Positions 15,001 through 18,000 of a stretch of DNA of 64,000 bases are shown here, in pieces (within the stretch, counting starts at the first letter, position 1; the number at the start of each line of letters is the position of its first letter). The DNA is taken from assembly GCF_053078305.1 (NCBI RefSeq), contig NZ_CP166879.1; one strand, given 5' to 3'. Position numbers: made by a program.

Positions 15001-18000
15001 TGGCAGTACCACGACAAATGGGTTGTCGCCAATGGCGGGTCGTGCACATAAAATGGAGTGGCCTAAACCTAAAGGTTCGCCCTGACGCACGTTCATAATG
15101 GTCACGCCAGGCGGACAGATAGACTGCACTTCCGCCAGCAGTTGACGCTTCACGCGCTGTTCAAGGAGAGATTCTAATTCATAAGAGGTGTCGAAGTGGT
15201 TTTCGACCGCGTTCTTGGACGCGTGAGTTACCAGGAGGATTTCTTTGATCCCTGCAGCCACAATCTCGTCAACAATGTACTGAATCATTGGCTTGTCGAC
15301 GATCGGTAGCATCTCTTTGGGAATCGCCTTAGTGGCAGGCAACATATGCATCCCAAGACCTGCTACCGGTATAACTGCTTTTAAATTCGTCATTCTTTTC
15401 CTACCTCTAAGTGGCTGATAGTGCGTAAATTATTGCCATAGGTTAGCCAAACGTTATGGCTATATACCAAAGCTTAGTTCCGCATAACTTTGCTTAAACC
15501 TTAGGATAACACTACACACCATCAGCATCTGGGTTACTCGGATTACTCGGAATTCCGCATACTGATAATTTAATCAGTACCTCTTTCCGAATAATCGTAG
15601 TCCAACCTGGTCCTTTTTTCTCTGACTTGTCTGCATTACTCAGAAACAAACGTTATGTCGTCTTTTTTGGCATGAACGAATTCATACTGCAGAGTTCGAT
15701 CCAGACCTTGCGACAGCGTATACGGTGCCACAAAACCTGAAGAATGCACTTTCGTTGCGTCAAACTGTGTTGTTGCGCAGAATTTTTTCACGCGCACTGA
15801 GCTGACAGCGTATTTTTTGCCCGTAATTTTGCTCAGGATATCAAAACAATATCCACCCAGCATTCCTAGTGGGTAAGGCAAGTGCATAGAAGGGATCTTT
15901 TTGTTCAGGCTTTGTTCAACTTCAGCAACCAACTGGTTCATGTTCAGGTCTGGCTTATCAACGTAGTTATAAACCTCATAACCTGCGGCAACATTCTTCA
16001 GTTTGTACTTGATAAACTCAACAATGTTTCCAACATAAGCCATGGACTTATAGTTAGTCCCTGCGCCCACCATCATAAACTTGCCGCCAGCGATCTGTTT
16101 CAGCAAGTTATAGACGTTACCGCGGTTGCGTTCACCGAAGATAACGGTAGGACGGATGATGGTTAATGAACGTTCTGTTGGTGCTTTGTTATACCATTCA
16201 CGCAGCACTTCCTCTGCCTGCCACTTACTTTTGCCGTAGTGGTTGAAAGGATCGTGTGGATGGTTTTCGTCAGGGTTGTGTTTGTTCAAACCATAAACAG
16301 CAACGGAACTGGTAAAGATGATATTTTTAACGCCATTTTTTTCCATGGCCGCCAGCACATTGCGGGTACCCTGAACGTTGACATCATAATAGAGAGAAGT
16401 AGGGCTGACGTCATCGCGGTGTTCCGCTGCCAGTAGTACAACAGTGTCAAAACCGGCTAACGCCTGGTCGAGTGCCTGTTGATCACGAACATCACCAATC
16501 TGTGTGATTTCTGGATAAAAGTGGCTCTGCTGTTTGTCCAGGTTCTTGATATTAAAGTCAGCAATTGCCGTTTCAAGTAGTCGGGTTCCTACGAATCCGG
16601 AAGCTCCTATGAGCAAAACGTTATCGTTCATAAATCACTTTAGTCTGGTTGTTACGTAAGAAACACAAGATAAAGATGAGTACCTTCCCTGAGTAGTCAA
16701 TGCTGCCCAGCCCCAGCTTTAACAGTTAGTGTGAGGATTATAATCTTTTAGAACATTATATCCAGTAAGTTTATGAATGGTCGCAAATCTACTCCCCCCG
16801 TTCCGGCAATCTAAAGTTAATCTTTTCCACATTAACAATATGGTGATTAATCCTGTCGATATCGACGGAGCTTTGTCCTTTCTCATTCACCGCATGAACA
16901 TTTGCAAGTGACAGCAGTGTTTCTTTTTTCGCCATAAAGACGCCGCGAACGTCTTTGCGCATGTCGAAGTTCATGCTCAATGCTGGTCCAACAGAGGATT
17001 CCTGCATCACATTGATATTGCGCATAAAAAGATGTTGCGGCTTGTTGTGTAACTCCAGCGAGGCACGCTTCATCTCAATGTTAGTCAGCGCCACAAAGGA
17101 GACGGCATTCCCAGCGGAGATTTGGATACCGCGCAATTTGTAAGCAAGATGGGTGTTATCCATTTGAATATTATTCACTCGGAAATTTTGCGGTATTGAG
17201 AGATATTTGCCTTTAATTACCCCATAGCCGATTAACATCCCGGCGCTATTAATCATTTCAATATTATCAATCACGAAATTGTCACAACCGTAAATAGCAA
17301 CTGTCGCGTTATCAATGCCTGCTTTCTTACTGAAATCCGGCGTGATATTGCGGGCTTTGATATTACGGATAACAAAATGTTTGCCATTTTCAACATGGAT
17401 CAACTGCCGACAATCCGATCCCGTGATATTCGCCACGACAAAGTTTTTCACTGCCTGGTCTTCCGGGTAATTATTATCGTAAGTGCTTCCTGCAAGGCCT
17501 ATGCCGATTCCCCAGTTGATTTTGCCGTTGGTACAGTTGATGCGCTCGATGACATGGTCAGATATCAAAATATCACTGTCGTTAATCGCCACGTTCCATT
17601 CGATGGCGTCGCCCTGTAAGTCGCTGAACTTACAGTTGGTGATGTTGGCACCGATAATCTGATTATGAAATCCCTGGCGTAAGATGGCGTAATTAGCGTG
17701 GCTGACAGTGAGGTTATCGATGGTCAGGTTGCGCATGACCCGTTTGTTTTTGCCGCCGATATAAATCTGCGTTACCGGGCCAAAGCCGCTCATCGCCAGA
17801 CCTTTGATGGTGCAGTCAGAGCCGCGCACATCCAGGGTGATGTTATGCATACTGCCGCCCTCCTCCCCTGTCACCTGGCTGCCGTCCTGTAAGACAAATC
17901 GCCCTCTGCCGTTGCCGCGCAGGCTTCCAAGGATGTGTAACATTTTGCCAGGAGGAATGAAGATGCCGGTGTTGATATTGTCACAAACCAATCCGGCAGG

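What the first reader, a model, noticed from the sequence alone, without database searches (positions are those of the whole stretch)
15636..16631. Extra epimerase gene between wcaM and galF, plus a second GalE-family epimerase inside the O-antigen cluster
This intergenic position is empty in E. coli K-12 but holds a gne-type gene in several pathogenic lineages. Here it coexists with another epimerase (8820..9836) in the O-antigen cluster, suggesting two routes to a 4-epimerised HexNAc, or one redundant or diverged copy.
Basis: partly seen in the sequence, partly recalled or inferred. Interest (0 to 1): 0.35.

Follow-up and report, generated by a model that had tools for sequence, protein, structure and literature searches.

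The report
Known Gnu and Gne epimerase pair
These two genes are the already described pair Gnu and Gne, which make the sugar GalNAc for the first position and probably for a later position of the E. coli O11 surface antigen, so the arrangement is ordinary.

Summary
Both genes are real and intact, on the minus strand: 15636-16631 (331 aa) between wcaM and galF, and 8820-9836 (338 aa) inside an O11-type O-antigen cluster.

They are not two copies of one enzyme. They share 27% identity, and only over the N-terminal NAD-binding part.

The 331-aa protein is 100% identical to the E. coli O157:H7 protein at the same locus. That protein is Gnu, which converts lipid-linked UndPP-GlcNAc to UndPP-GalNAc. 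It fails the GalE family model (71 bits against a cut-off of 262). About 24% of complete E. coli genomes carry it.

The 338-aa protein is a true GalE-family enzyme with an intact catalytic Ser/Tyr/Lys set. Its gate residue is Cys299, matching human GALE Cys307 rather than E. coli GalE Tyr299. That predicts it accepts UDP-GlcNAc, so it is Gne. It lies downstream of the JUMPStart element. A syntenic Salmonella cluster conserves it under purifying selection.

"Redundant or degenerate copy" is wrong: one enzyme makes the first sugar on the lipid carrier, the other most likely supplies UDP-GalNAc for a later residue.

The same pair is published for O86 and O125, and RefSeq already names Gnu. Interest is low.

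The parts
15636..16631 (-). gnu: 331-aa extended-SDR enzyme, UndPP-GlcNAc 4-epimerase (EC 5.1.3.26)
   Evidence: ORF. 100% identical over 331/331 residues to the O157:H7 protein at the same locus. RefSeq product name is the UndPP-GlcNAc 4-epimerase. The motif GASGFVG and residues S109/Y132/K136 are invariant in 33 homologues. GC 0.45, between the O-cluster and the core genes.
16632..16788 (-). wcaM-gnu spacer with a promoter-like site (-35 TGGATA at 16764, -10 TATAAT ending at 16737)
   Evidence: 157 bp, 100% identical to the O157:H7 spacer. The site matches 10 of 12 consensus positions; this is a consensus match only, not shown to function. Homology to K-12 resumes at about 16774, just downstream of the wcaM stop.
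15394..15635 (-). gnu-galF spacer, which travels with gnu and replaces the K-12 region upstream of galF
   Evidence: 242 bp, 99% identical to O157:H7. It is not alignable to the 174-bp K-12 spacer. No terminator-like site was found on the minus strand.
14497..15393 (-). galF, conserved flank of the O-antigen locus
   Evidence: TIGR01105 689.2 bits against a cut-off of 659.2; RefSeq annotation.
14208..14246 (-). JUMPStart element with the ops motif GGCGGTAG (14212-14219), upstream of wzx
   Evidence: Pattern match and sequence read. It lies between galF and wzx, so gne is inside the O-antigen operon and gnu is outside it.
8820..9836 (-). gne: 338-aa GalE-family UDP-hexose/UDP-HexNAc 4-epimerase with Cys299 at the gate position
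   Evidence: TIGR01179 427.7 bits (cut-off 262.3) and NF007956 448.9 bits (cut-off 394). 51% identical to K-12 GalE without gaps, with Tyr299 replaced by Cys. The best solved relative is human GALE, whose Cys307 aligns to Cys299. S124/Y149/K153/N179 are conserved. Found only in the 65 genomes that carry the O11 cluster.
9857..10924 (-). GT4 (retaining) glycosyltransferase directly upstream of gne
   Evidence: NCBIfam GT4-type matches; RefSeq 'glycosyltransferase'. Candidate alpha-HexNAc or alpha-Man transferase (inference).
7744..8751 (-). GT4 (retaining) glycosyltransferase directly downstream of gne
   Evidence: NCBIfam GT4-type matches, including PglJ and PglH GalNAc transferases at E=1.5e-16 and 1.5e-10. 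The Salmonella cluster has the same gne-GT4-gmd-fcl-gmm-manC-GT2 order.

Best explanation
The window carries the E. coli O11 O-antigen locus with the standard two-epimerase solution for an O unit that needs GalNAc at more than one position. WecA, encoded elsewhere, makes UndPP-GlcNAc at the inner membrane. Gnu (15636-16631) is an NAD-dependent SDR encoded just outside the O-antigen operon, between wcaM and galF. It epimerises C4 of the lipid-linked sugar to give UndPP-GalNAc, the first sugar of the unit. Gne (8820-9836) is a GalE-family enzyme encoded inside the JUMPStart-controlled operon between two GT4 transferase genes. Its small Cys299 gate residue leaves room for the N-acetyl group, so it converts UDP-GlcNAc to UDP-GalNAc. 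That is the donor for the second, alpha-linked HexNAc of the unit. Both enzymes use the usual SDR mechanism: transient oxidation at C4 by bound NAD+ with the Tyr/Lys/Ser triad, then re-reduction from the other face. Shown here: the identity of both proteins, their family membership, the gate residue, intact catalytic residues, locus structure, distribution and purifying selection. Taken from the literature: the substrate of Gnu, measured on the identical O157 protein. Inferred: that the second HexNAc of O11 is GalNAc, and that Gne supplies it.
For: Gnu: it is 331/331 identical to the O157:H7 protein at the same locus, and the flanking spacers are 99-100% identical. RefSeq names it the UndPP-GlcNAc 4-epimerase. 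Per PMC3682973, Rush et al. 2010 showed that the O157 enzyme acts on UndPP-GlcNAc and has no activity on UDP-GlcNAc, and the presence of gnu fits O-unit chemistry in 104 of 115 serogroups. It fails the GalE equivalog model (71.4 against 262.3 bits). Its top NCBIfam matches include several SDRs with lipid substrates (HpnA, OleD-type, sterol SdmB). Pfam 3Beta_HSD scores 95.7 bits and the NSDHL structure 6jkg is among the top PDB sequence matches.

Gne: it passes the GalE models. Cys299 aligns with human GALE Cys307 and with E. coli GalE Tyr299. 118 of its 120 closest homologues have Cys at this position, including a Y. enterocolitica 335-aa protein with Cys297 at 61% identity. PMC3682973 reports that active-site size decides whether these enzymes can use UDP-GlcNAc. 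A Salmonella cluster conserves the gene with the same order gne-GT4-gmd-fcl-gmm-manC-GT2, at 67% amino-acid identity and dN/dS about 0.15.

Context: the published O11 unit is a pentasaccharide with beta-GalNAc at the reducing end, alpha-L-Fuc, alpha-Man and a second alpha-linked 2-acetamido sugar (PMC4906483). The cluster has four transferases, which fits five sugars with WecA adding the first. The three searches for the 17-kb cluster, for gne and for the contiguous wzx-galF-gnu stretch each return 65 genomes, presumably the same set. UDP-Gal genes are normally not found in E. coli O clusters (PMC7685785). The same gnu+gne pair is published for O86, where a knockout of either gene altered the LPS, and for O125.
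Against: No enzymology was done here on either protein. The text I could read does not say whether the second 2-acetamido sugar of O11 is GalNAc or GlcNAc, and I could not obtain the primary structure paper (Li et al. 2011). The Cys gate is not specific to enzymes named Gne: Haemophilus and Avibacterium GalE proteins also have it, and PMC3682973 states that GalE and Gne cannot yet be told apart by sequence. gnu sits next to the cluster, so its perfect co-occurrence with O11 could reflect linkage rather than need. PMC3682973 records 10 cases in which a gnu or gne gene is present without being predicted from the structure. From memory, not checked: Wang et al. 2002 reported UDP-GlcNAc epimerase activity for the same protein from O55, which conflicts with Rush et al. 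2010.
Confidence: 0.85

Rival explanations
1. The in-cluster enzyme works as an ordinary GalE. It would supply UDP-Gal for a galactose in the O unit under operon control, and Gnu alone would account for the GalNAc.
For: RefSeq calls it 'UDP-glucose 4-epimerase GalE', and it passes the GalE equivalog model. Cys-gated relatives include bona fide GalE proteins of Pasteurellaceae. The fifth sugar of the O11 unit is not named in the text I could read.
Against: E. coli O clusters normally do not carry UDP-Gal genes, because the housekeeping galE supplies UDP-Gal (PMC7685785). The unit has a second 2-acetamido sugar that needs a donor. Both GT2 transferases match the colanic-acid enzyme WcaE (100.1 and 64.3 bits; the top match for 12158-12883, the second for 2958-3716). 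From memory, WcaE is a fucosyltransferase, and the fifth donor is cited to a fucosyl-thioglycoside paper. Together these suggest two fucoses and no galactose (inference). A Cys gate is unnecessary for UDP-Gal alone.
Confidence: 0.08
2. gnu is a linked passenger that is not needed for O11. The first sugar would be GlcNAc, and gnu is present only because the galF-linked locus recombines independently of the cluster.
For: [quoted passage not shown] Here gnu lies in the more divergent flank, not in the near-identical O11 core.
Against: The searches for the O11 cluster and for the contiguous wzx-galF-gnu stretch each return 65 genomes, although only 24% of all genomes carry gnu. The published unit is drawn with beta-GalNAc at the reducing end. 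The gene is intact and identical to the active O157 enzyme.
Confidence: 0.05
3. The two genes are redundant paralogues with the same specificity, one of them decaying.
For: Both belong to Pfam PF01370, and both have historically been called 'gne'.
Against: They share only 27% identity, confined to the N-terminal 260 residues. They belong to different clades (PMC3682973). Both have intact catalytic residues and no frameshifts. gne is under purifying selection. Gnu is 81-89% conserved across Enterobacterales. In O86, a knockout of either gene altered the LPS, so both are needed for normal O antigen.
Confidence: 0.01

Closest known systems
E. coli O157:H7 Gnu (formerly 'Gne', locus Z3206), UndPP-GlcNAc 4-epimerase (Rush et al. 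2010; named gnu in Cunneen et al. 2013, PMC3682973)
   Same: The protein is 100% identical. The position between wcaM and galF is the same, and the flanking spacers are 99-100% identical.
   Different: Nothing differs at the protein level. O157 has a single GalNAc, so its cluster is not expected to need gne (Cunneen's rule; the full O157 cluster was not examined here). In the O11 window, Gnu is paired with Gne.
E. coli O86:B7 gne1/gne2 pair (Guo et al. 2007, reinterpreted in PMC3682973) and the O125 pair (PMC9680116)
   Same: gnu lies upstream of galF and a GalE-family gne lies inside the cluster. In O86 a knockout of either gene altered the LPS, so both are needed for normal O antigen. The O units have GalNAc as the first sugar and as a later sugar.
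   Different: In O86, gne2 is the first gene after galF. Here gne sits mid-cluster between two GT4 genes. Identity between O11 Gne and O86 Gne2 was not measured: the E. coli 339-aa homologue I tried (P0037) came from a different locus. O11 is not among the 115 serogroups in Cunneen's Table S2.
[quoted passage not shown]
   Same: It is the best solved-structure match to the 338-aa protein (426 bits). The catalytic Ser/Tyr/Lys are shared, and gate Cys307 aligns with Cys299.
   Different: It is a eukaryotic housekeeping enzyme of the Leloir pathway. The O11 protein lacks the 6-residue insertion after about residue 33.
E. coli K-12 GalE (b0759)
   Same: Same length (338 aa), 51% identity without gaps, same catalytic residues.
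   Different: Tyr299 in place of Cys299. According to PMC3682973, E. coli GalE cannot use UDP-GlcNAc, and substitutions that enlarge the site allow it. GalE is encoded in the gal operon, not the O cluster.
Yersinia enterocolitica O:8 Gne (Bengoechea et al. 2002)
   Same: A Y. enterocolitica 335-aa protein (P0012) is 61% identical and has Cys297 at the gate. The literature shows that site size governs UDP-GlcNAc use.
   Different: That P0012 is the characterised O:8 Gne rests on my memory of 'Cys297'. The paper was not available.
Salmonella enterica cluster related to E. coli O11 (reported as S. enterica O16, Li et al. 2011)
   Same: Same gene order gne-GT4-gmd-fcl-gmm-manC-GT2. Gne is 67% identical with the Cys gate.
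   Different: The sequences have diverged (dS about 1.6). The serogroup of the Salmonella contigs was not verified, and only partial contigs were available.

Membership tests
Gnu (clade D UndPP-GlcNAc 4-epimerases, EC 5.1.3.26) | Close sequence relationship to the biochemically characterised O157:H7 enzyme | tested here: met
   331/331 identical to the O157:H7 strain F7508 protein at the same locus. RefSeq gives the same product name.
Gnu (clade D UndPP-GlcNAc 4-epimerases, EC 5.1.3.26) | In Enterobacteriaceae, a gene located just upstream of galF and the O-antigen cluster | tested here: met
   The gene lies between wcaM and galF. K-12 lacks it.
Gnu (clade D UndPP-GlcNAc 4-epimerases, EC 5.1.3.26) | Extended-SDR NAD-binding motif and Ser/Tyr/Lys catalytic residues | tested here: met
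   GASGFVG at residues 9-15. S109, Y132 and K136 are invariant in 33 homologues and align to GalE S124/Y149/K153.
Gnu (clade D UndPP-GlcNAc 4-epimerases, EC 5.1.3.26) | Acts on UndPP-GlcNAc and not on UDP-GlcNAc | not testable with these tools
   Reported for the identical O157 protein by Rush et al. 2010, as summarised in PMC3682973. There is no solved structure: the best PDB sequence match is only 66.8 bits, and the AlphaFold model (pLDDT 71.9) resembles generic sugar-nucleotide SDRs at TM 0.6-0.7.
Gnu (clade D UndPP-GlcNAc 4-epimerases, EC 5.1.3.26) | The O unit starts with GalNAc | tested here: inconclusive
   The O11 unit is drawn and synthesised with beta-D-GalNAc at the reducing end (PMC4906483). 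The biological first sugar was not independently shown.
GalE/Gne (clade A UDP-hexose 4-epimerases) | Passes the curated GalE family model (338-aa protein) | tested here: met
   TIGR01179 427.7 bits against 262.3; NF007956 448.9 bits against 394, full length.
   TIGR01179 71.4 bits against 262.3, and only residues 5-170 match. It shares 27% identity with the in-cluster enzyme over the N-terminal part only.
GalE/Gne (clade A UDP-hexose 4-epimerases) | Catalytic S124/Y149/K153 and N179 | tested here: met
   All are present in the O11 protein and in all 120 homologues.
Gne function (accepts UDP-GlcNAc) | A small residue at the gate position (E. coli GalE Tyr299, human GALE Cys307) | tested here: met
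   Cys299. 118 of 120 nearest homologues have Cys. This feature is necessary but not sufficient, because some proteins named GalE share it.
Gne function (accepts UDP-GlcNAc) | The O unit contains a GalNAc that is not the first sugar | tested here: inconclusive
   A second alpha-linked 2-acetamido sugar exists, but the accessible text does not give its configuration. GalNAc is inferred from the presence of gne and the apparent absence of Gal.
Gne function (accepts UDP-GlcNAc) | Measured UDP-GlcNAc/UDP-GalNAc interconversion | not testable with these tools

The most novel reading that the evidence does not exclude
The published O11 unit might contain neither galactose nor a second GalNAc, with the second HexNAc being GlcNAc. 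The conserved, Cys-gated, operon-embedded epimerase would then have no obvious substrate demand in O-unit synthesis. It would need another role, such as acting on a different nucleotide sugar or on a lipid-linked intermediate.
Probability: 0.03. Interest if true: 0.4.

Novelty: already known. Interest (0 to 1): 0.08.

Why it matters
It matters little beyond correct annotation. [quoted passage not shown] That fixes the order of transferase action and identifies the linkage made by Wzy. It also matters for glyco-engineering of GalNAc-initiated glycans in E. coli. For this window, the practical outcome is a label correction. The wcaM-galF gene should be called gnu, not gne. The in-cluster 'galE' of RefSeq is best read as gne.

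Tried and rejected
1. I tried to obtain the primary O11 structure. Li et al. 2011 and the Salmonella review were not held. Full-text searches for O11/O16 with sugar names found only the Liu 2020 review, which lacks the structure table. Two other papers matched only O11x prefixes. Only the synthesis paper PMC4906483 gave partial composition.

2. Rush et al. 2010 and Bengoechea et al. 2002 were not held. Their results are cited through PMC3682973. A search for 'Z3206' returned only noise.

3. I tried to measure identity to O86 Gne2 using the E. coli 339-aa homologue P0037. It lies at an unrelated locus, so I dropped it.

4. I modelled Gnu to look for a lipid-binding feature. Confidence was moderate (pLDDT 71.9, low around residues 110-132 and 275-289). 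Foldseek returned generic sugar-nucleotide SDRs at TM 0.6-0.7, with no specific relative. No mechanistic claim rests on the model.

5. Transferase family matches did not settle whether the second HexNAc is GalNAc or GlcNAc.

6. The terminator scan found no minus-strand site between wcaM and gnu or between gnu and galF. Whether gnu is co-transcribed with galF remains open.
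Full report
**Observation**

The window from 1 to about 18200 is entirely minus-strand. It reads as follows:
- gnd (3' end)
- manB 1563-2933
- GT2 glycosyltransferase 2958-3716
- manC 3788-5188
- gmm 5185-5640
- fcl 5643-6608
- gmd 6612-7733
- GT4 glycosyltransferase 7744-8751
- GalE-like gene 8820-9836
- GT4 glycosyltransferase 9857-10924
- wzy 10926-12161
- GT2 glycosyltransferase 12158-12883
- wzx 12892-14127
- galF 14497-15393
- 331-aa SDR gene 15636-16631
- wcaM 16789-18183

RefSeq annotates wzx and wzy in 99%-identical genomes as 'O11 family'. The O11 strain PCN033 is among the hits (PMC4578781). Both ORFs named in the finding sit at exactly the stated coordinates and are real genes (Pfam PF01370, E=8.5e-31 and 1e-54). 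In K-12, wcaM and galF are 174 bp apart. Here they are 1395 bp apart. Homology to K-12 stops at the galF start codon and resumes about 15 bp after the wcaM stop, so the whole spacer has been replaced by a gnu cassette.

**The two proteins are not the same kind of enzyme**

They share 27% identity, confined to the N-terminal 260 residues, which form the NAD-binding Rossmann part.

The 338-aa protein passes the curated GalE models: TIGR01179 427.7 bits against 262.3, and NF007956 448.9 bits against 394. The 331-aa protein scores only 71.4 bits on TIGR01179, over residues 5-170. Its best NCBIfam matches are HpnA, LegB and the OleD-type and sterol SdmB reductases. Pfam 3Beta_HSD scores 95.7 bits, and NSDHL (6jkg) is among its top PDB sequence matches. 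Several of these enzymes use lipid substrates. I treat that as suggestive, not as proof.

**The wcaM-galF gene is gnu**

Its product is 331/331 identical to the protein encoded at the same place in E. coli O157:H7. The 157-bp upstream spacer is 100% identical to O157, and the 242-bp downstream spacer is 99% identical. RefSeq names the product N-acetyl-alpha-D-glucosaminyl-diphospho-ditrans,octacis-undecaprenol 4-epimerase.

According to Cunneen et al. 2013 (PMC3682973), Rush et al. 2010 showed that the O157 enzyme has no activity on UDP-GlcNAc and converts UndPP-GlcNAc, the WecA product, to UndPP-GalNAc. The gene was renamed gnu (clade D). Its presence or absence fits O-unit chemistry in 104 of 115 serogroups.

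The NAD motif GASGFVG and residues S109/Y132/K136 are intact and invariant in 33 homologues. Homologues at 81-89% identity occur across Enterobacterales. In E. coli, 1314 of 5426 complete genomes (24%) carry the gene, nearly all at 98% DNA identity or more. Its GC content (0.45; GC3 0.48) lies between that of the O11-specific genes (0.26-0.39; GC3 about 0.24) and that of the galF and wca genes (0.48-0.54).

An AlphaFold model (pLDDT 71.9) and a Foldseek search of the PDB gave only generic sugar-nucleotide SDR matches. No Gnu structure has been solved.

**The in-cluster gene is a GalE-family enzyme with a permissive gate, so it reads as gne**

- It aligns without gaps to K-12 GalE at 51% identity, and Tyr299 of GalE is Cys299 here.
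- Its best solved relative is human GALE (426 bits), whose Cys307 aligns with Cys299.
- S124, Y149, K153 and N179 are all present.
- Among the 120 closest database homologues, 118 have Cys at the gate. One is a Y. enterocolitica 335-aa protein (61% identity, Cys297).
- PMC3682973 summarises experiments showing that the size of this site decides whether GalE-family enzymes accept UDP-GlcNAc. Human GALE accepts it and E. coli GalE does not.
- The gene occurs in exactly 65 complete genomes, and the full 17-kb O11 cluster is also found in 65.
- Salmonella contigs carry a 67%-identical orthologue in the same order gne-GT4-gmd-fcl-gmm-manC-GT2, with dN/dS about 0.15. The gene is therefore maintained by selection.
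- The 39-bp JUMPStart element with ops GGCGGTAG lies at 14208-14246, between galF and wzx. gne is thus inside the O-antigen operon, and gnu is outside it. gnu has its own promoter-like site at 16737-16764 (a consensus match only).

**Why both are there**

The accessible text of a synthesis paper (PMC4906483) describes the O11 repeat as a pentasaccharide. It has beta-D-GalNAc at the reducing end, alpha-L-Fuc, alpha-D-Man, a second alpha-linked 2-acetamido sugar and a fifth alpha-linked sugar. That gives four alpha linkages and one beta linkage.

The cluster has four transferases, which fits five sugars if WecA adds the first. It also has complete GDP-Man and GDP-Fuc pathways. Both GT2 enzymes match the colanic-acid enzyme WcaE. 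From memory, WcaE is a fucosyltransferase, and the donor for the fifth sugar is cited to a paper I recall as describing a fucosyl thioglycoside. I therefore infer two fucoses and no galactose. On that reading, UDP-GalNAc supply is the only sensible job for the in-cluster epimerase.

E. coli O clusters do not normally carry UDP-Gal genes (PMC7685785). [quoted passage not shown] The searches for the O11 cluster, for gne and for the contiguous wzx-galF-gnu stretch each return 65 genomes, presumably the same set.

The same pair is described for O86, where a knockout of either gene altered the LPS, for Y. pseudotuberculosis O6 and O7, and for O125.

**Weak points**

- I could not read the primary O11 structure, so the identity of the second HexNAc is inferred.
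- A Cys gate also occurs in proteins named GalE, and clade A does not separate GalE from Gne by sequence.
- gnu is physically linked to the cluster, so co-occurrence is weak evidence of need.
- The substrate of Gnu comes from the literature. From memory, an older report (Wang et al. 2002) claimed UDP-GlcNAc activity for the same protein.

**Verdict**

The arrangement is textbook for GalNAc-rich E. coli O antigens and is already reflected in RefSeq for gnu. Novelty: already known. Interest is low.

**Side observations**

- The colanic-acid copies of cpsG and gmd each carry a private 1-bp deletion.
- A Mu-like prophage interrupts yegH from about 40898 to the end of the window.
- The O11 core is nearly identical to that of another O11 strain, while the flanks differ by 2-6%.
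- The O-cluster manB is 97% identical to colanic-acid cpsG.

Noticed in passing
window 23896-25265 (minus strand), deletion near 24995: The colanic-acid cpsG (phosphomannomutase) has a 1-bp deletion relative to strain AHM21C2872I. This frameshifts the gene after about 90 codons. None of 5426 complete E. coli genomes has this exact 81-mer (best match 98.8%, which is the 1-base gap). It is either a private mutation or a sequencing error. An intact paralogue, manB, sits at 1563-2933.
   Followed up: partly
window 29567-30688 (minus strand), deletion near 29929: The colanic-acid gmd also has a private 1-bp deletion (GACCGGCG to GACCGCG) that frameshifts the gene, again unmatched in any complete genome. 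An intact low-GC gmd lies at 6612-7733 in the O11 cluster. Two frameshifts hitting exactly the two colanic-acid genes that have O-cluster paralogues is curious and unexplained.
   Followed up: partly
window about 40898-64000: A Mu-like transposable prophage is inserted in yegH. The ORF at 40209-40901 is the truncated 5' part of yegH. The prophage starts with TG at 40898 and encodes a repressor-like ORF 41169-41729 (minus strand), a 695-aa transposase 42148-44235, a MuB-like ORF 44307-45239, and DUF935 and head proteins. It covers 93% at 97.5% identity to prophages at other sites in O157:H7 strains. It runs off the end of the window.
   Followed up: partly
window 1563-2933 compared with 23934-25265: The O-cluster manB is 97% identical to the colanic-acid cpsG. 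Its GC is 0.55, against 0.26-0.39 for the rest of the O11 cluster. RefSeq even names it cpsG. This is the known manB/cpsG recombination mosaic at the gnd end of the cluster.
   Followed up: partly
window 1-20000 compared with L001 (strain AHM21C2872I): The O11-specific core (about 2500-14000) differs at only about 20 sites (0.17%). The flanks (gnd, the 5' part of manB, galF, gnu, wcaM-wcaK) differ by 2-6%. The pattern is what one expects when an O-antigen cluster moves between chromosomal backgrounds. gnu lies in the flank zone, and its allele here equals the O157 allele, not the allele of that O11 strain.
   Followed up: partly
window 14497-14502: galF is one codon longer here (298 aa) than the RefSeq galF of AHM21C2872I and K-12 (297 aa). 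The usual stop position reads TAT, followed by TGA.
   Followed up: no
window 20692-20966: The wcaK-wzxC spacer is 275 bp here, against 467 bp in AHM21C2872I. The 192-bp difference includes a locally duplicated segment in the other strain (second BLAST piece).
   Followed up: no
window 39799-39806 and 40386-40393 (minus strand): Two further GGCGGTAG (ops) motifs lie upstream of wza (38478-39617), in the colanic-acid operon leader region. Three matches in the window is not above chance (17 of 100 shuffles reach three), but the positions fit known JUMPStart sites.
   Followed up: no
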